Origin: an uncultured Acidobacteriota bacterium
Lineage (GTDB): Bacteria > Acidobacteriota > Thermoanaerobaculia > Gp7-AA8
Assembly: GCA_963821585.1 (NCBI GenBank)
Contig: CAWGEI010000005.1
Span: 1,094,603-1,158,602, forward strand
DNA: 64,000 nucleotides
Direction: 5' to 3'
The notes below the pieces were generated by a model. It was given only the letters and a program-made list of their open reading frames with translations. It searched no databases and was not told the DNA's origin. The number at the start of each line of letters is the position of its first letter. Position 1 is the first letter of the stretch. The translations under genes and the position numbers were made by a program. Below are positions 19,030 to 47,542 of this stretch, piece after piece.

Positions 19030-20325
19030 CTACAACGCCGCCAGCGCCGCGCGTTTGATCTTGCCGCGCTCGTCGACCGGCATCTGCTCGATGAGCTTCA
19101 CGATGCGTGGAACCTTGTGCAACGACAACCGCGTGCGGCAGAACTCGCGCACCTGCTCCCGTGTCACGTCCGGCGTCGCCACGATCGCCGCGGCCACGAC
19201 TTCGCCGCGCGCACCGGCGGGCTCGCCGTACACCTTGGCCTCGCTGACGCCTTCGATCTGCAGCAATACCGCTTCGACCTCGCGCGGGTTGACCTTCTTC
19301 CCCGCGGTGTTGATCAAATCACTCGCGCGGCCGATGAGGGCGATCTCGCCGTCGCGCTCCTCGACGAGATCGTCCGAAACGAACGAACCCTCGGCGAACG
19401 CCTCGAACGTATTCGCGTCGAACAGATACCCCGCCGCAACAGAGCGGCTGCGCACCGACAACCGCTTCGCGTCCGTCGCCAGCGTCACGCCTTCGAGCGC
19501 ACCGCCGACCGTCCCCCGCTCCACCGCCCCGCCGCGGCGGTCGTACGTGATCCCGCCGCACTCGCTGCAGCCATAGAACGAGTGCACGTCGATGCCGAAC
19601 CGCTCGCGGAACTTCCGCGACGTCGACGCCGGCAGCGGCGCGCCCGCGGAGATGAACGTCCGCACGGTCTCGAACGCCCCGTGTGCGGCAATGGCGAGGT
19701 GCTCGAACACCATCGGGATCAGCGGTGCCACCGTGCAGCGGTACTCATTCGCCAGATCGACGAGCGACTGCGGCAGGTAGTCGTTCGACACGACCACCGG
19801 CGTCCCCTGCACGAGCAGCGGCATCACCAGGTTCGAGAAGCCGTAGGAGTGCGAGAACGGGATCGCGCCGAGGTTCACGTCATCCGGCGTGATGCCCATC
19901 GTGGCGCAGATGTTCGTGCAGTCCGCGATGAGGTTCGCCTCCGTCGTCACGATCCCCTTCGGCATCGCCGTCGAGCCGGACGTCAGCTTCACCAGCCGCG
20001 CGTCCGAGGGAACGTCGGCGCGGCGGCCGATCCCGAAGTGGCGGTGGATGCCGGCGACCTCGGTGCCGGTCGCGTCGCGGTCGATGAGGAACACGACCAG
20101 GTCGAGTTTCACCGCGGCCAGGAACGTGGCTACGAAGTCGACCGAGTTCGGGAGCTGGATGGCGAAGCCGTCCCGGGCCTGCACACCCGACGCGGCGAGG
20201 TGGGCCGCGAGCTCGTCGGCGCGGCCGAGGAGCATGGCCCGGGTGGTGACGAAACCGGTGGTGCCGTCGATCAGCGCCGCCGCCTCGGGGGCCTCGCGCA
20301 CGAGTGACTCAAATCGTTGGTGCAT
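19030..20325 (-). CDS. AMP-dependent acyl-CoA/acyl-ACP ligase
   Basis: LTSGSTAMPKG (AMP-binding core motif), FYGCSECGG, GRASDLINTAGKKVNPREVE and a terminal DERGKIKR. The internal ATG (MHQRF) was chosen; the longer track ORF overlaps the ACP gene. Confidence 0.8.
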   Translation of the reverse strand: MHQRFESLVREAPEAAALIDGTTGFVTTRAMLLGRADELAAHLAASGVQARDGFAIQLPNSVDFVATFLAAVKLDLVVFLIDRDATGTEVAGIHRHFGIGRRADVPSDARLVKLTSGSTAMPKGIVTTEANLIADCTNICATMGITPDDVNLGAIPFSHSYGFSNLVMPLLVQGTPVVVSNDYLPQSLVDLANEYRCTVAPLIPMVFEHLAIAAHGAFETVRTFISAGAPLPASTSRKFRERFGIDVHSFYGCSECGGITYDRRGGAVERGTVGGALEGVTLATDAKRLSVRSRSVAAGYLFDANTFEAFAEGSFVSDDLVEERDGEIALIGRASDLINTAGKKVNPREVEAVLLQIEGVSEAKVYGEPAGARGEVVAAAIVATPDVTREQVREFCRTRLSLHKVPRIVKLIEQMPVDERGKIKRAALAAL

Positions 20326-28419: not shown

Positions 28420-28495
28420 GCCTCCATAGCTCAATTGGTAGAGCAGCGGACTCTTAATCCGTTGGTTCTAGGTTCAAGTCCTAGTGGGGGCACCA
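28420..28495 (+). tRNA. tRNA-Lys (anticodon CTT), CCA encoded
   Basis: Acceptor stem GCCTCCA/TGGGGGC, D arm GCTC..GAGC, anticodon loop CT-CTT-AA, T arm CTAGG-TTCAAGT-CCTAG, then A-CCA. Confidence 0.9.
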
Positions 28496-28509
28496 AACCG
28501 AATAGAATC

Positions 28510-28533
28510 GAGGGCGGGCATCAGCCCGCCCTC
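28510..28533. other. GC hairpin between the two tRNA genes
   Basis: GAGGGCGGGC atca GCCCGCCCTC. Confidence 0.5.
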
Positions 28534-28542
28534 CGTGTATTT

Positions 28543-28628
28543 GCGAAAGTGGCGGAATTGGCAGACGCGCTGGACTTAGGATCCAGTGGCCCAAAGCCGT
28601 GTGGGTTCGAGTCCCACCTTTCGCACCA
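28543..28628 (+). tRNA. tRNA-Leu (anticodon TAG), long variable arm, CCA encoded
   Basis: Acceptor stem GCGAAAG/CTTTCGC, anticodon stem-loop CTGGA-CT-TAG-GA-TCCAG, T arm GTGGG-TTCGAGT-CCCAC, then A-CCA. Confidence 0.9.
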
Positions 28629-34758: not shown

Positions 34759-36312
34759 GTGCGAATCCTCCCCCTGGTGGTCCTGCTGCTGGCCGTCCCG
34801 CTGTTCGCGCAGCGCTTCGACGACTCCGTCACGGTCAACGTCGTGGACGTCCCGGTGTACGTCGAGCGCTTCGGCGTTCCGATCGAGGGCCTCACGCGCG
34901 AGGACTTCACGCTGTTCGTCGACGGCAAGCCGCAGCCGATCGAGTACTTCGACATGGTCGAGGACCAGCGCGGACCGGAGAAGGCGGTGGCGGACGTTCA
35001 CGCGGACCTGAAACGGCGCCGGCTCATCGTCCTCCTCTTCGACGTAGCCGCCTCCTCTCATTCGCTGCAGCGCTCGCGCGAGGCGGCGATGAAGTACGTG
35101 TCCGCGGGATCGGCGGGAGACAGCTTCGCGGTGGCGACGATCGGCCGTTCCGGCGTTCGCTTCGTCGCGGCATTCACGAACGACCGCGTGGCCGTGCAGC
35201 GCGCGATCGGGACGCTCGCTCCGAGCGCGTCGCACGATCCGTTTCGCATCGCCACCCTCGACGCCGAGCGGTCGATGTGGGCCCAGGCCACGCGCGGCGG
35301 CGCGGAGGCGGGCAGCGGTTCGTTCAGCGACATCTGGAGCGACCAGATCGCACCGGGTGGCGTGGGGACCTCCAGCGCCGCGGCGAATGCCGCGCAATTC
35401 GAGCGAACCGTCCGGGAGATGGAAGCGCTGGAGGAGGAAGGGCTCAGCATCGGATTCATCGAGCACCTCACGAGACTGGCGGACCGGCTCGCGCCGCTGG
35501 AGGGCGTGAAGCAGGTCGTGCTGATGTCGGAACGGCGCAACGACGACGACGAGGACGAGGGCTTCGTGAACCGGCGAGCGACGCGCCTCCATGCGCACTA
35601 TCGCGCGGCGGGTGTGATCCTGAACGGCGTCGACATCCGTCCCCTGACCGTCCCCGCGGGGGAGGCGATCTCCACGGAGCCCGGCGGCCGCTCGCGCGCG
35701 CCGAGCGCGCTCGTATCCAACTTCCTCTACATGCTGGCGCTGGACACGGGCGGCATCGTGACGTCGACGCTGCCGCAGCTGCTGGATCGCAACCGCATCG
35801 CCTACGTGATCGGATTCCAGACCCGTCCCGGAGTCACGAAAGGCTCGATCCGCGTGGAGGTGAAGGACCTGCCTCTGCTCGCCGACGTCCGGTACCGCAA
35901 ATCGTTCGACCTCGGCGCGGCAAAGACCGCCGACAAGGGACTGTTCCTCGCCGACACGCTGCTGAACGACATCCCGCAGAACGGGGTGACGCTCGAGCTG
36001 CGGGTGAAGGGCACCGAAGTCACGGCGAGCATCCCGGGGGTGGAGCTGTTGTCGTATGCGTCCGGCAAGCCGCTCGGTCTGGAAGTGTTCTTCTACGTCT
36101 TCGACGGTGAAGGGCGGCCGTTCGCGTGGAACCTGTTGCAAGTCGCCGTCGACCTGGAGCAGGGGCGAGACTTTCTGAGCGCCAATCCGTACACCATGAG
36201 GCAGGACCTCGCGTTACAGCCCGGGCGTTACGTGGTGAAGGCGCTCGTGCGGATCGCGGGGACCGACCGGGTGGGTTTCCGGCGCGCGGAACTGACCGTT
36301 CCGGCGTCCTGA
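34759..36312 (+). CDS. secreted VWA-domain protein of the 'VWFA-related acidobacterial' type
   Basis: Signal peptide [18 protein letters not shown], then [46 protein letters not shown] and [12 protein letters not shown], the hallmark N-terminus of that family as I recall it. Confidence 0.7.
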
Positions 36313-38732: not shown

Positions 38733-38740
38733 TCCCATTG

Positions 38741-38762
38741 AGGGCGGGCTTCGGCCCGCCCT
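38741..38762 (+). terminator. GC hairpin after rho
   Basis: AGGGCGGGC ttcg GCCCGCCCT followed by a weak T tail. Confidence 0.5.
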
Positions 38763-38775
38763 TTGACGTGCGGCC

Positions 38776-41274
38776 ATGGCTGCGGACAGAGCACGCGAAG
38801 ACGCCGCTGAAGAACGCATCGCGGAGTGGCAGCGCGATCGGAGAATGATCGACGATCCGCGCGATCGATTCTTCCGGAATCGGGGCGTGAAGACCCGCGC
38901 GCTGGCTCTCGACGTGCTGGGTCTCACTCGAGTGCCGGAGAGCATACGCGAGCTGCGCGATCTGGAAGTGCTCGACCTCTGGGACAACTCCATCACGGAG
39001 TTGCCGGCCTGGCTCGGTGAGCTCAAGCAACTGAAGGGATTGCTGCTGAACGGCAATTTCCTGGGAAGCCTGCCGCCGGAGATCGGGACGCTGCAGAACC
39101 TGCGGGGGCTATGGGTCGGCCGCAATAAGCTCACTGCTCTTCCCGAGGAGCTCCGGAACCTGGAGTTGACGGATCTCGATCTGATGGCAAATCCGGCGTT
39201 GGAGATTCCGGAGAGCGTTCTCGGCAGGCCGCCGGAGGAGATCCTCCGCTACTACTTCGAGGCCCGCGAAGACAGCCGCCCTCTGCTGGAGCTGAAGCTC
39301 CTGATCATTGGTCCCGGAAGCGCGGGGAAGACCACGCTGCTGAAACGGCTGGCGGGGGGCGAGCCGAACGCCCATGAGCCTGAGACGCACTCCATCGACA
39401 TCCGGCCGATCGAGCTGCGCTGTCCCCGCGGCGTCGTCCGCGCGCGGGCCTGGGATTTCGGCGGGCAGGAGATCCTCCACGCCACGCACCAGTTCTTTCT
39501 CTCCGAGCGGAGTCTGTACCTGCTCGTCCTCGAGCCGCGCAGCGGGCTCGCGCAACGCCAGGCCGAATACTGGCTCAAGCTCGTCGAGACGCAGGGCGCG
39601 GCATCTCCGGTGATCGTCGTGCTCAACTGGAGTCGCAACCGCCCCTGGCGAGTCGACGATGTGAAGCTGCGGCGGAAGTTCCCCTTCATCGTCGACTTCA
39701 TTTCGACGGACGCGCTGCACGGCGAGGGAATCGATGCGCTGCTCGAGCTGATCACCGAAACGGTCGAGGAGCGGATGACGGACGTCTGGCTGCCGTTCCC
39801 GAAACGGTGGCGGCAGATCAAGGATTCCGTGGCCACGATGTCCGAGAATTTTCTGACGTACCACCGCTACGCCGATCTCTGCGCGAGGCTCGGCGAGCCG
39901 CGGCCCGATGCGCAGGCCGACCTCGCAGGCATTCTTCACGCCCTCGGCCTCGCGTTGTATTACGGACGCGATCCCCGCCTTCACGACACGCGCGTGCTGA
40001 ATCCGGGATGGGTCACGGGCGGCGTCTATGCCGTGATCCGTGCGCCTTCGGTGGCCGCGAACGCCGGACAGCTCGCCGTCTCCGACATGCCGCGCATTCT
40101 TCTCGAGGCCGAACAGCAGAAAGCGATCCTTGCCTCCGACTATCCCGAGGAGACGCACGCGTTCATCCTGGAACTGATGCGCGCCTTTCAGCTCTGCTAC
40201 GCGAGCGAAGAGGAGAACGGGAAAGCGTCGCGATACCTCGTCCCCGAGCTGCTGCCGGAGTTCGAGCCGGATCTGTACCAGGCGTGGGACCAGGCGCCGA
40301 TCCGTCTGCGCTATCGATACGGCGTGCCGCCGCCGGGACTGCTGTCCCGCTTCATCGTGCGCACGCACGCGCTCAGCGAGGGAGCGCCTCACTGGCGCCA
40401 CGGCGTGGTGCTCCGCCATGCCGGTGCCGAGGCTCTGATCCGCGAGGAGCTCGACCGGCCGGAGCTGCACGTGTTCATTGTTGAAGGAACGGAGGAGACA
40501 CGCCGCGTCCTGGTTGCGATCGTCCGCCGCGAGCTCGAGATCCTGCACACCGAGATGAAGATGCAGCCGATCGAGGAGCTGGAGCTGCCGGGCGACAGCG
40601 ATCAGTGGATCAGCGTGAAGGCATTGCGCGAGGTGGAAGCGTCCGACCAGCCCGTGCAGAAGCTGGCCGTGCAACCCGAGGGGACGGCCAGCGTCTCCGT
40701 CATCAGGGAGCTCGACAAGCTCACGCCCGCGGAAGCGCGAGCCATCGATCGCGATCCGGCCACGGCGCCGCGGCCGATTCGCCTCTTCGTCAGCTACGCG
40801 CACGCCGACGAACGGCACCTCAAGCGTCTCGATGCCATGGTCGACGTACTGGAGCACCAGCACGGACTGGCGGCGTGGCGTGACAGGCGTTTGCTCGCCG
40901 GTGAGGAATGGGAGCGGAGCATCCATGACCGGCTCGAGGAGATGGACATCTTCCTCATCATCGCCAGCGCCCTGTCGCTCGCCAGCCCATACGTGAGGAA
41001 AGAGCGTCAACGCGCCCGCGAGCGCTACGAAGCCGGCGAAGTGGAGATCGCGATCGTGAAGCTCGAGCCCTGCGCCTGCGACGAGGACGAATTCCTCGGC
41101 AGATTTCAACGGCTGGCGCCGAATCACGAGAGCATCGTCGAAGCGGCCCAGGAGTCGCGCGCCTGGGAGGACGTGCGGAAGGATCTTCTCGCAGTCATCC
41201 GGCGCGTGCGCGAGAAGAAACAGATCGGCGCTACAGGATCACCGGATACCGGTCCGGCCGCGCCTCGTGCATGA
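38776..41274 (+). CDS. ROCO-type protein: LRR - Roc GTPase - COR - C-terminal TIR domain
   Basis: LRRs span aa ~45-145 (LEVLDLWDNSITELPAWLGELKQLKGLLLNGNFLGSLPPEIGTLQNLRGLWVGRNKLTALP). The Roc P-loop is IIGPGSAGKTTLL with WDFGGQE. COR hallmarks are WLPFPKRWRQIKD, VLNPGWVTGGVYAVI, FILELMRAFQLCY, YLVPELLP and LRYRYGVPPPGLLSRFIVRTH. The TIR-like domain from aa ~668 reads IRLFVSYAHADERHL...IFLIIASALSLASPYVRKE. Confidence 0.8.
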   Translation: MAADRAREDAAEERIAEWQRDRRMIDDPRDRFFRNRGVKTRALALDVLGLTRVPESIRELRDLEVLDLWDNSITELPAWLGELKQLKGLLLNGNFLGSLPPEIGTLQNLRGLWVGRNKLTALPEELRNLELTDLDLMANPALEIPESVLGRPPEEILRYYFEAREDSRPLLELKLLIIGPGSAGKTTLLKRLAGGEPNAHEPETHSIDIRPIELRCPRGVVRARAWDFGGQEILHATHQFFLSERSLYLLVLEPRSGLAQRQAEYWLKLVETQGAASPVIVVLNWSRNRPWRVDDVKLRRKFPFIVDFISTDALHGEGIDALLELITETVEERMTDVWLPFPKRWRQIKDSVATMSENFLTYHRYADLCARLGEPRPDAQADLAGILHALGLALYYGRDPRLHDTRVLNPGWVTGGVYAVIRAPSVAANAGQLAVSDMPRILLEAEQQKAILASDYPEETHAFILELMRAFQLCYASEEENGKASRYLVPELLPEFEPDLYQAWDQAPIRLRYRYGVPPPGLLSRFIVRTHALSEGAPHWRHGVVLRHAGAEALIREELDRPELHVFIVEGTEETRRVLVAIVRRELEILHTEMKMQPIEELELPGDSDQWISVKALREVEASDQPVQKLAVQPEGTASVSVIRELDKLTPAEARAIDRDPATAPRPIRLFVSYAHADERHLKRLDAMVDVLEHQHGLAAWRDRRLLAGEEWERSIHDRLEEMDIFLIIASALSLASPYVRKERQRARERYEAGEVEIAIVKLEPCACDEDEFLGRFQRLAPNHESIVEAAQESRAWEDVRKDLLAVIRRVREKKQIGATGSPDTGPAAPRA

Positions 41275-43711
41275 TCGCGCAGACCTCGGCGATGATCGAC
41301 TCCCGGTTGGGCTTGGACCAGTAGTCTCCATCCCAGCCGTACGCGGGCCGGTGCTCTTTCGCGGCGATCGCGCGCGGTCGGGAGTCGAGCCAGTCGTAGC
41401 CGCGATCGCGATCGAGGACGTTCTGCATCATGAACGCGGTCGCGCCGCCGGGAACGTCTTCGTCGATGAATGCCACCCGGTTCGTCTTCTTCAGCGATTC
41501 GGCGATCGCTCCGTGACGGTCGAACGGCAGCAGCGTCTGCACGTCGATCACTTCCGCATCGATGCCGGCCTGGGTCAGCAGCTCGGCGGCTTCGAGCACG
41601 ATGCGCAGCGTCGCGCCATAGGAGACGAGTGTGACGTCGTTGCCTGCGCGCAGGATCTCCGGTACGCCGAGAGCCACCCGGTAGTCGCCGATGTTGGAGG
41701 GCAGCTTTTCCTTGGTGCGATACCCACTCAGCACTTCCACGACGATGGCGGGATCGTCGGACGACAGCAGCGTGTTGTACAGGCCCGCGGCCTGGGTCAT
41801 GTTCCGCGGCACGCACAGGTGCATGCCGCGCACGAGATTGAGGATCCCGGCCATCGGTGAGCCGGAATGCCAGATGCCCTCGAGCCGGTGGCCACGGGTG
41901 CGGATGATGGCCGGCGCCTTCTGTCCTCCCGCGGAGCGCCAGCGCAACGTCGCCAGATCGTCGGACAGCGTCTGCAGCGCGTACAGGATGTAGTCGAGAT
42001 ACTGGATCTCGGCGATCGGCCGGAAGCCGCGCAGCGCGGCGCCGATGGCCTGGCCGACGATCGTACACTCGCGCACGCCGGTATCCATCACGCGCCAGAC
42101 TCCGTACTTGTCTTGCAGACCCAGGCAGCCCTGATTGACGTCGCCGAGCTTCCCGACGTCCTCTCCGAAGATGATGATGCGCGGATCGCGCCTCAGCGCG
42201 CGATCGAAGCAGTGATTGATAATTTCGTAGCCGTTGACGGCTGGAGCATCGTCCTCGTATGCGGCCTTCACCGCGCTGACGTTCAAGGCGCCTTCATCAC
42301 TTTCGCTGGAGAGATGAGCGCCGTACCGGTGGTCGCCTTCGGCGATCCGGCGGCGAAGCCAATCCAACGCGTCGTCATTGCGGTGCCGCAGCAAGGCATG
42401 GGAAACCGCGCGAATGGCATCGCGGCGGTACAGCGCTTCCGAGGAAGGGATTTCCCTTCCCCGATCCCAGGGCCGATCGCTCGGGACCGACTTCAGATCG
42501 TCCACGCCGAGCCGGCCGAGGATCGTGCGCGCCTCGCGCAGCTCTGCGTCGATCGGCGCGCGAAACGCCGTCCAGGCACGACGTTGCGCCTCCATCACGA
42601 GGGCTCGGCCTTCCCGCTCCATCGCGTCGAGCTCGGCCGCGGCGGCGATGCCCTGCGCGATGATCCAGTCGCGCATCCTTTTGATGCAGTCGAATTCCAC
42701 TTCGAACTCGAGCCGCTGCGCCGACTTGTAGCGCTCGTGACTTCCCGACGTCGAGTGCCCCTGCGGCTGCGTGAGCTCCGTCACGTGTACGATCGCAGGC
42801 ACATGCTCCCGACGGACGACCTCGGCGGCGGCGAGGTAGGTCTCGCACAGCGCCGGATAGTCCCAGCCGCGGACGGTGTAGAGGTCGAAGCCCTTCTTGC
42901 CTCCCGACTCGCGCTGGAAGCCTTGCAGCAGCTCGGAGATGTTCGCCTTCGTGATCTGGAGCTCGTTCGGTACGGAGATGCCGTAGCCGTCATCCCAGAT
43001 GGAGACGACCATCGGGATTCCCAGGACGCCCGCGGCGTTCAGCGACTCGAAAAACATCCCTTCGGCGCAACTGGCGTTGCCGATCGCGCCCCACGCGATC
43101 TCGTCGCCATTGCGCGAGAACTGCTCCGCTCCGGACGTGCCGAGCTCGCGATAGAGCCGCGACGCCCAAGCCAGACCGACGAGGCGCGGCATCTGCGCGC
43201 CGTTCGGCGAGAGATCGGCGGCGACGTTGAACGCGTCGACCTGAGGCTTGAAGTTGCCGTCGGCGTCGAGGAGGCGCGAAGCGAAACTCGAGTTCATCGC
43301 GCGGCCTCCGCTGGAGGGCTCGTGCTCGATGTCGGCGTTTGCGTAGAGTTGCGCGAAGAATTGCTCGACAGTGATCGCGCCGAGCGCGAACATCAGTGTC
43401 TGGTCGCGGTAGTAGCCGGAGCGCCAGTCCCCGCGCCGGAATGCGCGCGCCCACGCAAGCTGCGCGACCTCCTTGCCGTCCCCGAAAATGCCGAACTTTG
43501 CCTTCCCGGTCAGCACCTCTCTGCGGCCGAGGAGGCTCGCATCGCGGCTTCGCACGGCGACGCGATAGTCGTCGAGGATGCTTTCGCGAGTGAGCTGCGT
43601 GCGTGTCGTGGGGCTCGATGGGGACACGGTCGGAGAATGTACCACCCCGTATCGCGGAGCAGTCCTTTCATCGGCGGAGGTGGCTGCATCGTTGTGATGA
43701 CCGTGGGTCAC
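41231..43711 (-). CDS. TPP-dependent 2-oxoacid dehydrogenase E1 component, fused alpha+beta subunits
   Basis: E1-alpha-like N-half (GDGKEVAQLAW...GNASCAEGMFFESLNAAGVLGIPMVVSIWDDGYGISV) and transketolase-like beta half (IIFGEDVGKLGDVNQG...MDTGVRECTIVGQAIGAA). The start is uncertain. GTG at 43711 was preferred, with GGAGA 8 nt upstream. The track ORF extends to 44026 through a tandem repeat and a hairpin. Confidence 0.75.
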   Translation of the reverse strand: MTHGHHNDAATSADERTAPRYGVVHSPTVSPSSPTTRTQLTRESILDDYRVAVRSRDASLLGRREVLTGKAKFGIFGDGKEVAQLAWARAFRRGDWRSGYYRDQTLMFALGAITVEQFFAQLYANADIEHEPSSGGRAMNSSFASRLLDADGNFKPQVDAFNVAADLSPNGAQMPRLVGLAWASRLYRELGTSGAEQFSRNGDEIAWGAIGNASCAEGMFFESLNAAGVLGIPMVVSIWDDGYGISVPNELQITKANISELLQGFQRESGGKKGFDLYTVRGWDYPALCETYLAAAEVVRREHVPAIVHVTELTQPQGHSTSGSHERYKSAQRLEFEVEFDCIKRMRDWIIAQGIAAAAELDAMEREGRALVMEAQRRAWTAFRAPIDAELREARTILGRLGVDDLKSVPSDRPWDRGREIPSSEALYRRDAIRAVSHALLRHRNDDALDWLRRRIAEGDHRYGAHLSSESDEGALNVSAVKAAYEDDAPAVNGYEIINHCFDRALRRDPRIIIFGEDVGKLGDVNQGCLGLQDKYGVWRVMDTGVRECTIVGQAIGAALRGFRPIAEIQYLDYILYALQTLSDDLATLRWRSAGGQKAPAIIRTRGHRLEGIWHSGSPMAGILNLVRGMHLCVPRNMTQAAGLYNTLLSSDDPAIVVEVLSGYRTKEKLPSNIGDYRVALGVPEILRAGNDVTLVSYGATLRIVLEAAELLTQAGIDAEVIDVQTLLPFDRHGAIAESLKKTNRVAFIDEDVPGGATAFMMQNVLDRDRGYDWLDSRPRAIAAKEHRPAYGWDGDYWSKPNRESIIAEVCAIMHEARPDRYPVIL

Positions 43712-43770
43712 GGCACGATTCTCCGTCTGAAAGATTCGGCCTGAGCCAGGGGAGGCCGCTGTCGTCGTGA

Positions 43771-43985
43771 GAAAGATCTGATTGACGAAGAGATCGATCC
43801 GATCGATGAAGAGAAAGATCTGATCGATGAAGAGATCGATCTGATCGACGAAGAGAAAGATCTGATCGATGAAGAGATCGATCTGATTGACGAAGAGGAA
43901 GATCTGATCGACGAAGAGAAAGATCTGATGGATGAAGAGATCGACCCGATCGATGAAGAGAAAGATCCGATCGATGAAGAGATCT
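43771..43985. repeat. tandem array of 10 x 21 bp (alternating GAAAGATCTGATCGATGAAGA / GATCGATCTGATCGACGAAGA), very GATC-dense
   Basis: Units start at 43771, 43792, 43813 ... 43960, giving a 42-bp higher-order period. GC is lower than the surroundings. Confidence 0.95.
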
Positions 43986-43995
43986 TTCTTATGGT

Positions 43996-44021
43996 GTGCG
44001 GCGGCGTCGTTGCCGCCGCAC
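43996..44021 (-). terminator. hairpin directly downstream of the 44028 stop
   Basis: GTGCGGCGGC gtcgtt GCCGCCGCAC is a perfect 10-bp stem with no clear U-tract. Confidence 0.45.
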
Positions 44022-44027
44022 TCCAAA

Positions 44028-45284
44028 CTACCGCGAGAGGTTCGACGGCAGCATGGGCGTCGAGATCAGCTCCTTGAACATGTCCCAGTTCTTCACGTGC
44101 CCCCGCACCAGGTCCAGGCCGACGTTGTAGTTGATGACGTAGCTGCGGTAGCGCTCGATGAACTTCATCTGCTGTTCCGCGCGCTCGGGGGTGGAGAGGC
44201 TGTACTTCACGAGCCACGCTTTCGCTTCGTCGCGGGACACTTCGCCGTTGAGCCAGCGGCGCGCTGCTTCGTTGGAGGCGTAGCCGAGGGCGGTGCCGAG
44301 TTTGGAGACGCGGTGGAAGCGCTCGGCTTCCGCGGGATCGAGTCCGGCGAGAGGGAACAGGACGTCGCGGTCGAACTTCATGCGCTCGTCGCCGGGGAAC
44401 GCGATCTCCAGGCCGAAGTTCCCGGTCCCCTCGGCGATCAGCGACTGCGGGCTGTTGAGGGGGTAGACGGTGTACTCGACCCAGCCGCGGTCGCGCACGA
44501 GGTTCTTTTCGAGCAGCGCGTTGTAGACGTGGTGTCCGGGATAGCCCTCGTGACACGCGAGGTCGAGGGTGCGGGACACGCCGACGGGGAGGTCGGTGTT
44601 GACCTGGATGAGGCTCGTGAAGTTGCCCTTGTACCAGTTGTACGCGGACCACGGCTGGTTCTTCACGTACTCGAGCGTGAACTTCTCTTCCGCGGGCAGC
44701 TGGATGTGCTGCAGCGTGCGCGCGCGGCACTCGTCGAGGGCCTTGCGCATGACGACGTCGAGCTTGTCCGCGGGGATCTCGAACCGCTTGCGATAGGTCT
44801 CGATGCGTTGCCCGAGGGGGGCGTCGCCGGGGAGCTCTTTCTCCAGCGCCGCGATGGCGTTGGCGAAGAACGCATCGTCATGACGCGGCGGCGTGACGCC
44901 GTACAGCAGCCGGGCCTCCTCGTCGAAGGTGAATTTCTTCCCCTGCAGCATCTCGGCCTTGGTGATGGTCGCGCCGAGCTGCTCGATGAGGTAGTTGCGC
45001 CGCAGCGCGAGCAGTCGGTCGCCGGGCACGGGCACGCGCTGCACCGTCTCACGCAGCGCCGTCGCCTCGGCGTGGATGTCCGCGATGCTCTTCTTCTCGG
45101 CCTTGACCGCCTCCCGCCACTCCGGCGGTCCGTAGTACGCGTCGACCCAGTCGGCGTCGTGCTCGCCGAGGGCGAGGGCGAGCTTCACGTAGCTCGTGGC
45201 GTGGGCGTCCAGAGACGGCGGCGGCTGGACCGAGGCACAGGCGGCGGTGAGAAACAGGAAAACAAATGCGGTCAATCGCTTCAT
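44028..45284 (-). CDS. DUF885-like lipoprotein (putative metallopeptidase fold)
   Basis: Lipobox MKRLTAFVFLFLTAAC and an HEGYPGHH motif typical of DUF885. Confidence 0.6.
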   Translation of the reverse strand: MKRLTAFVFLFLTAACASVQPPPSLDAHATSYVKLALALGEHDADWVDAYYGPPEWREAVKAEKKSIADIHAEATALRETVQRVPVPGDRLLALRRNYLIEQLGATITKAEMLQGKKFTFDEEARLLYGVTPPRHDDAFFANAIAALEKELPGDAPLGQRIETYRKRFEIPADKLDVVMRKALDECRARTLQHIQLPAEEKFTLEYVKNQPWSAYNWYKGNFTSLIQVNTDLPVGVSRTLDLACHEGYPGHHVYNALLEKNLVRDRGWVEYTVYPLNSPQSLIAEGTGNFGLEIAFPGDERMKFDRDVLFPLAGLDPAEAERFHRVSKLGTALGYASNEAARRWLNGEVSRDEAKAWLVKYSLSTPERAEQQMKFIERYRSYVINYNVGLDLVRGHVKNWDMFKELISTPMLPSNLSR

Positions 45285-45379
45285 GTTGGCTCTATGGTCC
45301 CCAATTCGAGTGTACGCACGGATTGCGATTCCGCAACATTCGTGTTCTCTTCCCCGCTGAAACAGGAGGCAAGTTTCGA

Positions 45380-47542
45380 ATGAAAACCCGTCTATTCGCA
45401 CTGCTGGCGCTGCTGGCCGTGCCGATTGCAGCCGTCGCCGACGATGGCATGTGGATGCCGCAGCAGGTCCCGGCGCTGGCCGGTGAGCTGAAGAAGCTCG
45501 GCCTGCAGATCGACCCGAATTCCTTCGCCGACCTCACCGCCTTTCCCATGGGCGCGATCGTGAGCCTCGGCGGCTGCAGCGCCTCGTTCGTGTCGCCCGA
45601 GGGGCTCGTGGCCACGAACCACCACTGCGTGTACGGCTCGCTGCAGTACAACTCCACCCCCCAGAACGACCTCGTGAAGAACGGCTTCCTGGCCAAGGAC
45701 AAGGGCCAGGAGATCGAGATCTCGCCGGGCGGGCGGATGTTCGTCACGCAGAGCATCGAGGACGTGACGAAGCAGGTCCTGGCCGCGTTCCCCGCGAACA
45801 CGTCCGACGCCGAGCGCGCCCGCACCATCACGCGCCGCCGCCGGCAGATGATCGAGGACTGCGAGAAGGGCGGCGGCAAGCGCTGCGTCGTGGCCTCGTT
45901 CTTCGAGGGCGGGCAGTACCTGAAGATCACGCAGATGGAGATCCGCGACGTCCGTCTGGTCTACGCGCCGGCCCTGGGCGTCGGCAACTTCGGCGACGAG
46001 ATCGACAACTGGATGTGGCCGCGCCACACCGGCGACTTCGGGTTCTACCGCGCGTACGTCGGCAAGGACGGCAAGCCCGCGGACTTCTCGAAGGAGAACG
46101 TCCCCTACCGGCCGAAGCACTGGCTGAAGATCTCCACGCGCAACCTGAACCCCGACGACCTGGTGATGGTCATCGGCACGCCGGGCGTGACCGAGCGCCA
46201 CGTGACCGTGTCCGAGGTCGAGGCGGCTGCGGAGTTCGAGCTGCCCACGTCCGTGCGGTATCGCCGGATGCTCACCGACCTCCTGCAGGCGCGCGGCAAG
46301 GACGATCGCGACATCGCCCTCAAGAACGCCAGCCGCATCGCCGGCCTGGAGAACTACCTGAAGAAGCACACCGGGACGCTCGAAGCGTTCGAGCGCGGCG
46401 ATTACGTCGAGGCGAAGCGGAGCATCGACCAGCGCGACCGCGCCGCGCTCGATGCGGCGCTCCGGCCGAAGTACGAGGCCGCGGAGAAAGAGCTCCTGGC
46501 GCTGCTGGAGAAGGAGCGCGCCACGCGCGACCGCGATCTCGTCTTCTCCTGGCTGTATCAGGCGTCGCCGATCCTCTCGCAGGCGAACTCGATCTACCGC
46601 CTGAGCGTCGAGAAGACCAAGGCGGACCTCGACCGCGCCGAGCCCTATACGGAGCGCAATCGCAAGAACCTCCTCAGCGGCGTGACGCGCCAGCGCCGCA
46701 ACATGGAGCCGGGCAGCGACCGCGCCGGTCTGCGGCTGTTCCTCCTCGAGGCCACGAAGCTGCCGGCCGGCCAGCGCATCCCGCCGGTCGACGCCGCGCT
46801 CGCGGCGACGGGGCAGGCCAATCCGGAAGCGCAGGTCGACGCGCTGCTGGACAAGCTCTACGGCTCGACGCAGATCGGCAACGCCGACGCGGAGACGAAG
46901 ATGCTCGGCGAGACCACCGCGCAGCTCACCGCGCGCAATGACTCGATGCTCAGCTTCGCGGCGTCGCTGCGCGCGTTCGCCGCGAACCTCGACGAAGACT
47001 CGAAGACGTTCGAAGGCGCGATGTCGCGCATCCGGCCGGTCATGCTCGACGCCCTGCGCGTCGCGCGCGGCGGGCGCCTGTACCCCGACGCGAACGGCAC
47101 GCTGCGCTTCGGCTTCGGCCAGGTGAAGGGCTACGCGCCGCGCAACGCGATGTGGTACTTGCCGCAGACCGACGTCCGCGGCGTGATCGAGAAGGAGACG
47201 GGCGAGGAGCCGTTCGCCAGCCCGGCCCGCCTGCTCGAGCGCGCGAAGGCGAAGGAGTTCGGCCCCTACGCGGATCCGGAGCTGAAGTCGCTGCCGGTGG
47301 GATTCATCTCGACGAACGTGGTCACGAACGGCAGCTCCGGCTCCGCGACGCTCAACGCGTGGGGCGAGCTGTGCGGTCTGGCGTTCGACTCGAACTGGGA
47401 AGGGGTAGGTTCGGACTACCTGGTCGAGGAAGAGATCACGCGCACGATCCACGTGGACTCGCGGTACATGTTGTGGGTGATGGACGCGGTGGACAACGCG
47501 GACAACCTGCTCACGGAGATGGGGATCACGCCGCAGTTGTAA
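45380..47542 (+). CDS. S46 family dipeptidyl-peptidase (DPP7/DPP11-like)
   Basis: Signal peptide, then DDGMWMPQQ and SLGGCSASFVSPEGLVATNHHC (His of the triad), with C-terminal TNVVTNGSSGSATLN (Ser). AGGAGG precedes the ATG. Confidence 0.85.
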   Translation: MKTRLFALLALLAVPIAAVADDGMWMPQQVPALAGELKKLGLQIDPNSFADLTAFPMGAIVSLGGCSASFVSPEGLVATNHHCVYGSLQYNSTPQNDLVKNGFLAKDKGQEIEISPGGRMFVTQSIEDVTKQVLAAFPANTSDAERARTITRRRRQMIEDCEKGGGKRCVVASFFEGGQYLKITQMEIRDVRLVYAPALGVGNFGDEIDNWMWPRHTGDFGFYRAYVGKDGKPADFSKENVPYRPKHWLKISTRNLNPDDLVMVIGTPGVTERHVTVSEVEAAAEFELPTSVRYRRMLTDLLQARGKDDRDIALKNASRIAGLENYLKKHTGTLEAFERGDYVEAKRSIDQRDRAALDAALRPKYEAAEKELLALLEKERATRDRDLVFSWLYQASPILSQANSIYRLSVEKTKADLDRAEPYTERNRKNLLSGVTRQRRNMEPGSDRAGLRLFLLEATKLPAGQRIPPVDAALAATGQANPEAQVDALLDKLYGSTQIGNADAETKMLGETTAQLTARNDSMLSFAASLRAFAANLDEDSKTFEGAMSRIRPVMLDALRVARGGRLYPDANGTLRFGFGQVKGYAPRNAMWYLPQTDVRGVIEKETGEEPFASPARLLERAKAKEFGPYADPELKSLPVGFISTNVVTNGSSGSATLNAWGELCGLAFDSNWEGVGSDYLVEEEITRTIHVDSRYMLWVMDAVDNADNLLTEMGITPQL

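What the first reader, a model, noticed from the sequence alone, without database searches (positions are those of the whole stretch)
38776..41274. LRR-Roc-COR-TIR protein: candidate single-gene GTPase-switched immune sensor/effector
The 832-aa ORF sits alone between rho and a convergent E1 dehydrogenase gene. The sequence shows about four LRRs. It has a Roc GTPase with P-loop GPGSAGKT (K185) and DFGGQE, but the usual NKxD G4 box reads NWSR. Both COR halves carry their hallmark motifs. A C-terminal TIR-like domain follows (RLFVSYAHADERHL ... IIASALSLASPYVRKE, candidate catalytic Glu at E743). ROCO proteins (Roc+COR, e.g. LRRK2 and the Chlorobaculum Roco) are GTP-regulated dimeric switches. Bacterial TIR domains are NAD-consuming or signal-generating effectors in Thoeris, CBASS and some STAND systems. 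By analogy to NLR/STAND logic, an LRR sensor coupled through Roc-COR to a TIR effector would be a self-contained defence module. I am not aware of an experimentally characterised bacterial example. The 3' end overlaps the convergent gene by 44 nt.
Basis: partly seen in the sequence, partly recalled or inferred. Interest (0 to 1): 0.75.

Follow-up and report, generated by a model that had tools for sequence, protein, structure and literature searches.

The report
Bacterial LRR–Roc–COR–TIR switch protein
This gene encodes a real single-protein fusion of a leucine-rich-repeat sensor, an LRRK2-type GTPase switch and a TIR (NAD-cleaving) domain; it is accessory cargo in a variable genome spot, belongs to a class predicted but never tested as bacterial immunity, and could give the Roco switch an easy enzymatic read-out.

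Summary
ORF 38776–41274 (+, 832 aa) carries 4–5 LRRs, Roc, COR-A, COR-B and a TIR_2 domain, all above Pfam cut-offs. AlphaFold models match CtRoco/LRRK2 and solved TIR domains. K185, T204 and DFGGQE are invariant in the family. E743 is invariant too and aligns with the experimentally required Cat1 E74.

The odd G4 (N-W-S, no Asp) is conserved across the clade. Across diverse Rocos, loss of the G4 Asp co-occurs with an acidic G5 residue (here invariant D312), so guanine reading may have moved rather than been lost.

The gene is accessory. Three relatives share tig-clpPX-lon-engB-rho and two also share S46-PBP1-MlaE, but each carries different cargo after rho, including a PIN toxin–antitoxin pair. 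One homolog is bracketed by two IS copies. Close homologs (62–79% identity) span Acidobacteriota, Gemmatimonadota and Chlorobiaceae.

No defence-island enrichment was found, and some lineages keep the gene among housekeeping genes. The class (LRR–AP-GTPase–COR–effector, TIR included) was already predicted as a conflict system by Kaur et al. 2021. I found no experimental test.

Verdict: a new member of a predicted, uncharacterised kind. An immune role is plausible but unproven.

The parts
38776..41274 (+). Complete ROCO-TIR ORF, 832 aa
   Evidence: identical protein P0001 on a 1.97-Mb contig
38742..38764 (+). GC-rich hairpin GGGCGGGC-TTCG-GCCCGCCC followed by TTT, between the rho stop and the ROCO-TIR ATG. 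It looks like a rho terminator; no sigma-70 promoter match lies in front of the gene.
   Evidence: read directly from the sequence; no hits in the promoter/terminator consensus scan
38776..38877 (+). N-terminal helical region (aa 1-34). Poorly conserved except for the EERIAEW motif.
38896..39225 (+). LRR domain (aa 41-150): four canonical repeats plus a degenerate cap. It is the most variable structured domain (48% mean identity to the family, versus 73-75% for Roc/COR).
39289..39780 (+). Roc G-domain (aa 172-335)
   Evidence: Pfam Roc; alignment to CtRoco and MbRoco2; Foldseek hits
39310..39333 (+). G1 P-loop GPGSAGKT (aa 179-186). G179, G184, K185 and T186 are invariant.
39454..39471 (+). 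G3 / switch II DFGGQE (aa 227-232), invariant in all homologs examined
39625..39633 (+). Non-canonical G4, N284-W285-S286 (99/92/98% conserved). The Asp of NKxD is absent, a one-residue deletion relative to MbRoco2 NKID.
39706..39714 (+). G5 T311-D312-A313. D312 is invariant and aligns with the Ser of S-C-K in MbRoco2. It is the candidate relocated base-reading Asp.
39799..40254 (+). COR-A (aa 342-493)
40300..40644 (+). COR-B (aa 509-623), the dimerisation half in CtRoco
40780..41175 (+). TIR domain (aa 669-800). A long alpha-E helix extends to aa 820.
41002..41004 (+). Codon of E743, the candidate catalytic Glu. A clade-unique one-residue deletion lies immediately before it.
41231..41274 (.). 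44-nt convergent overlap with the 3' end of the E1 dehydrogenase ORF. It covers only the disordered, non-conserved C-terminal tail.
38733..45265 (.). Variable 'hotspot' interval between the conserved rho and S46 peptidase genes. Here it holds ROCO-TIR, E1 and an unknown 457-aa gene; relatives hold other cargo.

Best explanation
The gene encodes an intact, horizontally mobile, single-gene member of the bacterial LRR-Roc-COR-effector (ROCO / 'AP-GTPase') class, with a TIR domain as its output. The most likely working model has three steps. First, the short variable LRR binds a trigger, most plausibly a phage or other invader protein. Second, this releases the Roc-COR nucleotide switch from its closed state; Roc-COR cycles between nucleotide states that differ in oligomerisation, as shown for CtRoco. 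Third, the resulting change in quaternary arrangement lets the C-terminal TIR domains pair into composite active sites that cleave NAD+, causing growth arrest or abortive infection. What is shown: the domain architecture and folds, conservation of all nucleotide-binding and TIR active-site residues, LRR hypervariability relative to the rest, and accessory/mobile status. What is inferred: nucleotide dependence, NADase activity, the nature of the trigger and the immune role. The Roc domain probably still reads guanine, through G5 Asp D312 instead of the missing G4 Asp; this is inferred from covariation.
For: Architecture and folds: Pfam hits are above cut-offs. The full-length AF2 model (pLDDT 85.9) matches CtRoco LRR-Roc-COR 6hlu at E 4.5e-35, RocCOR 3dpu at TMt 0.81, MbRoco2 at TMt 0.80, and LRRK1/2. 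All top hits of the TIR-only model are TIR domains: RPS4, SPARTA TIR-APAZ, Roq1, EcThsB, SARM1, AbTir. Catalytic competence: K185, T186 and DFGGQE are 100% conserved and T204 is 99%. E743 is invariant in both tiers, and S673/D703/E743 align with Cat1 S7/D33/E74, residues that line the NADase site; the D33A and E74A mutants are defective. Sensor-like variability: LRR 48% identity versus Roc 73%, COR 75%, TIR 65%. Accessory and mobile: three relatives share tig-clpP-clpX-lon-engB-rho (Rho core 96-99% identical) and two also share S46-PBP1-MlaE, yet none has ROCO-TIR; one carries a DUF6364-PIN toxin-antitoxin pair at the same place. In L005 the gene lies between two IS copies that are 94% identical. 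Homologs at 62-79% identity occur in Acidobacteriota, Gemmatimonadota and Chlorobiaceae. One homolog sits next to LSDAT/SLATT + TPR-S conflict-type genes. No partner gene is conserved, so it acts as a single-gene module. Class-level prediction by Kaur et al. 2021. The Roc-COR monomer-dimer cycle is shown for CtRoco (PMC5714945). G4/G5 covariation: 65 of 68 Rocos without the G4 Asp have D/E at G5, against 13 of 43 with NKxD (Fisher p about 1e-13; table).
Against: There is no defence-island enrichment. Of 58 + 123 neighbour ORFs around 23 homolog loci, only one methyltransferase, one SNF2/DpdE-like helicase and one PDC-S70 hit are defence-like; the rest are housekeeping genes. In Pyrinomonadaceae/Blastocatellia the gene keeps a fixed position between MoCF_biosynth and nuoA, downstream of carB, and the clade is unusually conserved, with about half of Roc/COR residues invariant. 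That is not typical of arms-race genes. PADLOC has no model for it beyond the TIR. In CtRoco the GTP state is monomeric, which is not obviously compatible with TIR activation by assembly. The window's copy deviates at 16 of 368 near-invariant columns (rank 4 of 118) and has a unique one-residue deletion just before E743. No biochemical or phage data exist.
Confidence: 0.5

Rival explanations
1. The protein is an endogenous stress or dormancy switch rather than an immune receptor. The Roc-COR module reads the cellular nucleotide state or a conserved host cue, and the TIR lowers NAD+ to impose reversible growth arrest.
For: The clade is very highly conserved and collapses into a single 50%-identity cluster. 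It holds a stable syntenic position among housekeeping genes (carB-MoCF-[gene]-nuoAB) in three or four genomes. No defence-island signal was found. The LRR is short, only 4-5 repeats. The altered G4/G5 base-reading motifs hint at unusual nucleotide sensing.
Against: The gene shows presence/absence polymorphism between very close relatives and sits in a variable hotspot that holds a toxin-antitoxin pair in a relative. It is flanked by IS copies in L005 and has a cross-phylum distribution. The LRR is the fastest-evolving domain. Bacterial TIRs characterised so far act in conflict systems.
Confidence: 0.2
2. The TIR is a signal generator, like Thoeris ThsB. It makes a cADPR-type or related nucleotide messenger that activates an effector encoded elsewhere in the genome, so the gene is not self-contained.
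For: The best PADLOC match is ThsB1 (E 2e-18, aa 670-820), and a SAVED-TIR model also hits. EcThsB is among the structural hits.
Against: No ThsA-like (SIR2, Macro or SLOG) or other recurrent partner is found next to the gene in the window or among neighbours of 23 homolog loci. No conserved small ORF accompanies it. The gene seems to move alone. ThsB similarity is limited to the generic TIR fold.
Confidence: 0.15
3. The TIR is a non-enzymatic adaptor, or the protein is an LRR-type virulence or surface factor; sources annotate homologs as 'internalin A'.
For: JGI annotations call homologs 'internalin A'. NCBIfam gives weak, sub-threshold LRR matches to Xop effectors. TLR TIR domains are among the profile hits.
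Against: The annotations rest on the LRR only and fall far below family cut-offs (56 bits versus 450). The catalytic Glu and other active-site residues are invariant. The architecture is cytoplasmic ROCO, and the hosts are free-living soil bacteria.
Confidence: 0.05
4. This particular copy is a functionally compromised or drifting allele of the family.
For: It has 16 deviations at columns that are at least 93% conserved (median 6). These include P-loop R180P, D742K, L744R and a unique one-residue deletion directly before E743. Its GC3 (0.82) is lower than that of the flanking core genes (0.90-0.92).
Against: The 832-codon ORF is intact and all strictly invariant catalytic residues are retained. 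Its nearest relative P0002 is even more divergent, with 21 deviations, which suggests a divergent lineage rather than decay. The AF2 model is confident.
Confidence: 0.1

Closest known systems
Predicted prokaryotic LRR-AP-GTPase-COR-effector conflict systems (Kaur, Burroughs, Iyer, Aravind, eLife 2021, PMC8195603, Fig. 6D)
   Same: Identical architecture logic: a variable N-terminal LRR, a Ras-like AP-GTPase (Roc) + COR, and a C-terminal effector. TIR is explicitly listed among at least 24 effector domains.
   Different: That work is purely computational and emphasises multi-paralog arrays in multicellular bacteria. Here there is a single copy in 64 kb. It belongs to a tight, highly conserved clade of soil Acidobacteriota and Gemmatimonadota, with a clade-specific N-W-S G4 motif and only 4-5 LRRs.
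Chlorobaculum tepidum Roco (CtRoco; PDB 6hlu, 3dpu, 8r4b) and Methanosarcina barkeri Roco2 (4wnr)
   Same: LRR-Roc-COR core. phmmer E 1e-64 (CtRoco 6hlu) and 5.5e-62 (MbRoco2 4wnr); Foldseek E 4.5e-35; RocCOR TMt 0.80-0.81. P-loop and DFGGQE are shared.
   Different: CtRoco has a 411-aa LRR, canonical NKID/SCK motifs, and a 155-aa C-terminal region of unknown function that my TIR profile does not detect. The window protein has 4-5 LRRs, NWS/TDA motifs and a bona fide TIR.
LRRK2 / LRRK1 / DAPK1 (eukaryotic ROCO proteins)
   Same: A Roc-COR switch flanked by LRRs and controlling a C-terminal catalytic output.
   Different: The output is a protein kinase (+WD40), not a TIR. These proteins are far larger, and identity is only 16-22%.
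TIR-NLRs: plant TNLs (RPP1, Roq1) and bacterial STAND-TIR / Avs / bNACHT systems
   Same: Sensor repeat + NTP switch + TIR effector in one polypeptide. The TIR fold and Glu are shared.
   Different: The switch is a Ras-like GTPase + COR, not a STAND (NB-ARC/NACHT) ATPase. The domain order is reversed: LRR at the N-terminus and TIR at the C-terminus.
Enzymatic bacterial TIRs: Thoeris ThsB, Cat1, SPARTA TIR-APAZ, AbTir
   Same: The TIR fold; active-site Ser/Asp/Glu aligned with Cat1 S7/D33/E74; ThsB HMM hit.
   Different: Those are activated by cOA, guide/target nucleic acids or capsid sensing, and work with partner proteins. Here the TIR is fused to a Roco switch, with no partner.

Membership tests
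ROCO proteins (Roc + COR tandem) | Ras-like Roc G-domain with P-loop GxxxxGK[ST] and switch II DxxGQ | tested here: met
   Pfam Roc 71.7 bits (cut-off 27). GPGSAGKT and DFGGQE are invariant.
ROCO proteins (Roc + COR tandem) | COR-A and COR-B immediately C-terminal of Roc | tested here: met
   Pfam COR-A 3e-31 and COR-B 2e-16. Foldseek to 3dpu TMt 0.81 and 3dpt TMt 0.82-0.84.
ROCO proteins (Roc + COR tandem) | Nucleotide-dependent dimer/monomer cycling and GTP hydrolysis | not testable with these tools
   Known for CtRoco (PMC5714945). It needs biochemistry here.
Canonical guanine-specific small GTPases | G4 motif [NT]KxD, whose Asp reads the guanine base | tested here: not met
   N284-W285-S286 with a one-residue deletion at the Asp position relative to MbRoco2 NKID. 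An invariant D312 at G5 co-varies with G4 Asp loss, so compensation is possible.
Enzymatic TIR domains (NADase / cADPR synthase) | TIR fold | tested here: met
   TIR_2 51.4 bits (cut-off 28). The top 24 Foldseek PDB hits are all TIR domains. Profile hits to Cat1 2.8e-10, TLR15/TLR6/TLR1/TLR2, AbTir, L6 and RPP1.
Enzymatic TIR domains (NADase / cADPR synthase) | Catalytic Glu at the start of helix alpha-C | tested here: met
   E743 is invariant in 118/118 close and all aligned tier-2 homologs. It aligns with Cat1 E74, and E74A is defective. No 3-D superposition of side chains was possible.
Enzymatic TIR domains (NADase / cADPR synthase) | NAD+ cleavage activity dependent on TIR self-association | not testable with these tools
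   Requires an assay. No multimer prediction tool was available.
Thoeris | ThsB-type TIR protein encoded next to a ThsA effector (SIR2/Macro-SLOG or TM) | tested here: not met
   The ThsB HMM hits the TIR. However, no ThsA-like gene is present among the window neighbours or the recurrent neighbours of homologs.
STAND / NLR-type receptors (Avs, bNACHT, TNL) | STAND NTPase module (NB-ARC / NACHT) | tested here: not met
   Only sub-threshold AAA_16 noise at the P-loop (13.9 bits versus 32.6). The NTPase is Roc. It resembles an NLR in logic but is not a member.
LRR-AP-GTPase-COR-effector conflict systems (Kaur et al. 2021) | Rapidly evolving N-terminal LRR + AP-GTPase + COR + C-terminal effector from the conflict-system repertoire | tested here: met
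   Domain order. The LRR is the most variable domain. TIR is a listed effector.
LRR-AP-GTPase-COR-effector conflict systems (Kaur et al. 2021) | Multiple paralogs per genome with different effectors; multicellular hosts | tested here: inconclusive
   There is no paralog in the 64-kb window or in the +/-10 kb of 84 loci. Whole genomes were not available.
Anti-phage defence genes in general | Enrichment next to known defence genes (defence islands) | tested here: not met
   PADLOC census of 181 neighbour ORFs at 23 loci gave about 3 specific defence-like hits. The sample is small, there is no formal background, and PADLOC covers these phyla poorly. The gene is nevertheless accessory, in a hotspot, and IS-flanked.

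The most novel reading that the evidence does not exclude
A large subclade of bacterial Roco proteins, including this clade, has moved the base-reading Asp from G4 (NKxD) to G5 (T-D-C/A). In this slow-evolving, partly vertically inherited ROCO-TIR clade, the switch may not be an arms-race phage receptor. It may instead be a conserved nucleotide-state or conserved-ligand sensor that gates an NAD+-consuming TIR. That would be a bacterial regulated-dormancy or cell-death switch whose enzymatic output directly reports Roc-COR conformational state.
Probability: 0.2. Interest if true: 0.75.

Novelty: new member of a known kind. Interest (0 to 1): 0.5.

Why it matters
Prokaryotic Roco proteins are the main structural models for the Parkinson's-disease protein LRRK2. 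Their physiological role and output are nevertheless unknown: CtRoco's C-terminal region is 'of unknown structure and function', and a 2019 Roco review states that all prokaryotic Rocos identified so far have only the simple LRR-RocCOR arrangement. A compact 832-aa Roco with only 4-5 LRRs and a TIR output would provide an easily measured read-out, NAD+ consumption, of how nucleotide state and oligomerisation of Roc-COR control an effector. If the immune role is confirmed, it would be the first validated GTPase-switched (non-STAND) single-chain TIR receptor in bacteria. That would test the 2021 computational prediction and add a family missing from PADLOC. The G4-to-G5 Asp covariation is a concrete, testable point about nucleotide recognition in Roc domains.

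Tried and rejected
(1) A single-sequence TIR search against PDB sequences found nothing. The close-family profile A2 gave only a marginal Cat1 hit at E 0.11. Adding tier-2 TIRs (A3) was needed to reach significance.

(2) I tested the idea that loss of the G4 Asp is specific to TIR-bearing Rocos. The association is only weak: counts 52/44/38/14, odds ratio about 3. It follows subclade structure, so I rejected it as a functional link.

(3) Conserved synteny with rho is rejected. None of the window's neighbours occur near 80 homologs.

(4) I looked for a conserved small partner ORF downstream and found none. There are no paralogs in the window.

(5) There are no phage-encoded relatives. Plasmid-borne relatives are only distant non-TIR Rocos, at most 35% identity.

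(6) CtRoco's C-terminal domain is not detected as a TIR by profile A3.

(7) Mapping the CtRoco catalytic arginine (R543) onto this protein failed because the paper (PMC2519104) is not held. R245 and R255 are both invariant, but I assign neither.

(8) The sigma-70 promoter and terminator scan around the gene gave no hits. The hairpin after rho was read by eye.

(9) dN/dS on the LRR was not attempted, because synonymous sites are saturated at 62-79% amino-acid identity.
Full report
OBSERVATION. The ATG lies three codons after the upstream in-frame stop, and the N-terminus matches the family consensus. Pfam places LRR_14/LRR_8 at aa 41-145, Roc at 174-284 (E 8e-20), COR-A at 342-493 (3e-31), COR-B at 509-623 (2e-16) and TIR_2 at 671-778 (2e-13). 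All are above curated cut-offs. PADLOC recognises only the TIR part: ThsB1 2e-18 and SAVED-TIR 5e-8. NCBIfam gives only sub-threshold LRR and small-GTPase hits. A regular-expression scan finds four consensus LRRs at aa 63, 86, 109 and 131, preceded by a degenerate cap. The 44-nt overlap with the convergent gene (41231-41274) is real. It involves only a tail that is non-conserved and disordered in the model.

STRUCTURE. An AlphaFold2 model built on 106 homologs is confident: mean pLDDT 85.9, pTM 0.79. Its best PDB matches are the C. tepidum Roco LRR-Roc-COR crystal structure (6hlu, E 4.5e-35), the RocCOR tandem (3dpu, TMt 0.81), M. barkeri Roco2 (4wnr, TMt 0.80) and LRRK1/LRRK2. A separate model of aa 660-820 (pLDDT 78) hits TIR domains throughout the top of the list: RPS4, SPARTA TIR-APAZ, Roq1, IL-18R-beta, EcThsB, SARM1, AbTir and RUN1. 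A sequence profile combining close and distant ROCO-TIR C-termini (A3) hits many solved TIRs. These include Cat1 (2.8e-10), TLR15/TLR2, TLR6, TLR1, AtTIR, AbTir, L6, RPP1, PdTIR and Roq1.

KEY RESIDUES. I aligned 118 close homologs. K185 and T186 are 100% conserved, T204 is 99%, and D227-E232 are 100%. E743 is present in 118/118 and is also invariant in the 31-39%-identical second tier. In the profile alignment, S673, D703 and E743 pair with Cat1 S7, D33 and E74. The Cat1 paper reports that these residues line the NADase site and that D33A and E74A abolish the in-vivo growth-arrest phenotype (PMC12162218).

THE G4 ANOMALY. N284-W285-S286 is conserved at 99/92/98% in the clade. Relative to GDP-bound MbRoco2 (LNKIDENP), the Asp position is simply deleted. 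Second-tier ROCO-TIR proteins have NK-x-(K/E/R/A), also without the Asp, whereas many non-TIR Rocos keep NKxD.

In 150 RocCOR representatives at 50% clustering, the link between Asp loss and TIR is weak (counts 52/44/38/14), so I do not interpret it functionally. A different covariation is strong. I aligned 111 Roc domains: the query plus 110 of the representatives. Of the 68 lacking the G4 Asp, 65 have D or E at the G5 position occupied by invariant D312 ('T-D-C/A'). Of the 43 with NKxD, 29 have the classical G5 Ser (Fisher p about 1e-13; not corrected for phylogeny).

In Ras, the G5 Ser hydrogen-bonds the G4 Asp that reads guanine (my own knowledge). An Asp at that G5 position could therefore contact the base directly. 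I conclude that the Roc domain is probably still a guanine-nucleotide switch. This is an inference. The Roco review notes only that G4-G5 'show some variations' (PMC6337361).

FAMILY AND DISTRIBUTION. The 120 best database hits all have the same architecture, lengths of about 720-1190 aa (all but two between 750 and 950) and 62-78% identity. Named sources are Pyrinomonadaceae, Blastocatellia, Thermoanaerobaculia and Chlorobiaceae. The genome scan adds Bryobacterales, Gemmatimonadales and Longimicrobiaceae at 62-68% identity, followed by a gap down to 42% or lower. In the 1.84-billion-protein representative library the whole clade is a single 50% cluster (P0052) plus fragments. The next RocCOR modules are at most 47% identical. 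The superfamily has 3,112 representatives at E<=1e-30. 67 of the 150 nearest representatives carry this TIR type, usually at the C-terminus. The architecture is therefore common. Domain-wise identity to the query is LRR 48%, Roc 73%, COR-A 75%, COR-B 75% and TIR 65%, so the LRR is the variable part.

GENOMIC CONTEXT. The window neighbourhood is tig-clpP-clpX-lon-unknown-engB-rho-[ROCO-TIR], then a convergent fused E1 alpha/beta dehydrogenase, an unknown gene and S46 peptidase. It is not a defence island. None of these neighbours occurs within 10 kb of any of 80 homolog loci. Rho places the organism in Acidobacteriota.

Three relatives retain the left block, with the Rho core 96-99% identical; Lon (89-95%) and ClpX (95-98%) are present in the two loci that extend far enough upstream. 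Two of them also retain the right block, S46-PBP1-MlaE. None of the three has ROCO-TIR, E1 or the unknown gene. The interval after rho instead holds DUF2064 and a radical-SAM methyltransferase (L085), a DUF6364-PIN toxin-antitoxin pair (L086), or hypotheticals (L087). The gene is therefore accessory cargo of a variable hotspot.

In a Bryobacterales genome the homolog is bracketed by two same-orientation IS copies, with DDE_Tnp_1_4 transposases 94% identical. One homolog lies beside LSDAT/SLATT and TPR-S genes.

Against a classical defence-island picture, four Pyrinomonadaceae/Blastocatellia-type loci (L002, L082, L083 and the P0071 contig) keep the gene immediately between MoCF_biosynth and nuoA-nuoB, with carB a few genes upstream. 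A PADLOC census of 181 neighbour ORFs at 23 loci found only about three specific defence-like hits. Pfam shows mostly housekeeping genes. No conserved partner ORF and no paralog was seen. There are no phage-borne relatives, and plasmid-borne ones are only distant non-TIR Rocos.

LITERATURE. Kaur, Burroughs, Iyer and Aravind (eLife 2021) describe prokaryotic AP-GTPase + COR proteins with rapidly evolving N-terminal LRRs and at least 24 alternative C-terminal domains. [quoted passage not shown] The Roco field's 2019 review still states that all prokaryotic Rocos identified have the simple LRR-RocCOR arrangement. Deyaert et al. [quoted passage not shown] Searches combining Roco, Roc-COR or AP-GTPase with phage, anti-phage, TIR or NADase found no experimental study. 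Neither did checks of two recent TIR-system preprints.

MECHANISM. CtRoco is dimeric when nucleotide-free or GDP-bound and monomeric and elongated with GTP (PMC11052575). Enzymatic TIRs need self-association to form composite active sites, for example Cat1 K121/Y122 from a second TIR.

The best-supported model is that ligand binding to the variable LRR, coupled to the Roc nucleotide state, changes the quaternary arrangement so that the TIRs following COR-B can pair and cleave NAD+. It is unresolved which nucleotide state is 'on', and whether higher-order assembly is needed. I give the immune (abortive-infection) reading about 0.5. An endogenous stress or dormancy switch gets about 0.2. A Thoeris-like signal generator with an unlinked effector gets about 0.15. 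The remainder goes to non-enzymatic or degenerate alternatives.

A caveat specific to this copy: it differs from its family at 16 of 368 near-invariant columns (median 6). It also has a unique one-residue deletion right before E743. A consensus-like homolog should therefore be tested alongside it.

VERDICT. This is a new, compact and well-conserved member of a computationally predicted, experimentally untouched class. Its main value is as an experimentally attractive Roco with a measurable output. The G4/G5 covariation is a small new lead.

Noticed in passing
window 43769-43982: A 21-bp tandem repeat (consensus GAGAAAGATCTGATCGATGAA, 10.2 copies, 82% matches) lies between the E1 dehydrogenase gene and the next gene, inside the variable hotspot. 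The mechanical ORF 41231-44026 reads through it as FLFIDQI-type repeats, so the true E1 start is probably downstream of it.
   Followed up: partly
L005 7434-14750 (Bryobacterales MAG CBDCTD010000004.1): A tight-clade ROCO-TIR homolog is bracketed by two direct copies of an IS. The DDE_Tnp_1_4 transposases are 443 aa each and 94% identical, spaced 5855 bp apart. The arrangement resembles a composite transposon.
   Followed up: yes
window 38733-45265 versus L085, L086, L087: The interval between rho and S46 peptidase is a variable hotspot in related Acidobacteria. It carries a DUF6364-PIN toxin-antitoxin pair in L086, hypotheticals in L087 and different genes in L085.
   Followed up: yes
window 38742-38764: A perfect 8-bp GC hairpin with a TTCG loop followed by TTT lies 10 nt after the rho stop and 12 nt before the ROCO-TIR ATG. 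It is probably the rho terminator. No Shine-Dalgarno or sigma-70 promoter is evident for the ROCO-TIR gene.
   Followed up: partly
window 34759-36312 (+) and 44028-45401 (-): Two sizeable ORFs (517 aa and 457 aa) with high GC3 have no Pfam match at 1e-5. The first is conserved in relative L085 (75% identity) between lon and engB. The second is hotspot cargo with no counterpart in the relatives.
   Followed up: partly
L084 5267-9540 (7.7-Mb genome, protein P0046 locus): Directly upstream of a tight-clade ROCO-TIR homolog are an LSDAT_prok/SLATT_1 protein and a TPR-S protein. These are genes of predicted nucleotide-centric conflict systems.
   Followed up: no
proteins P0037, P0140, P0157, P0255, P0263: Architectural variants exist. 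P0037 (1194 aa) adds AAA_22/PF14516 domains to the LRR-Roc-COR-TIR core. Several more distant Rocos carry the TIR at the N-terminus instead of the C-terminus.
   Followed up: no
window 28420-28628: tRNA-Lys(CTT) and tRNA-Leu(TAG) lie immediately upstream of tig, and tRNA-Asn(GTT) is at 19403-19475. None is adjacent to the ROCO-TIR hotspot.
   Followed up: no
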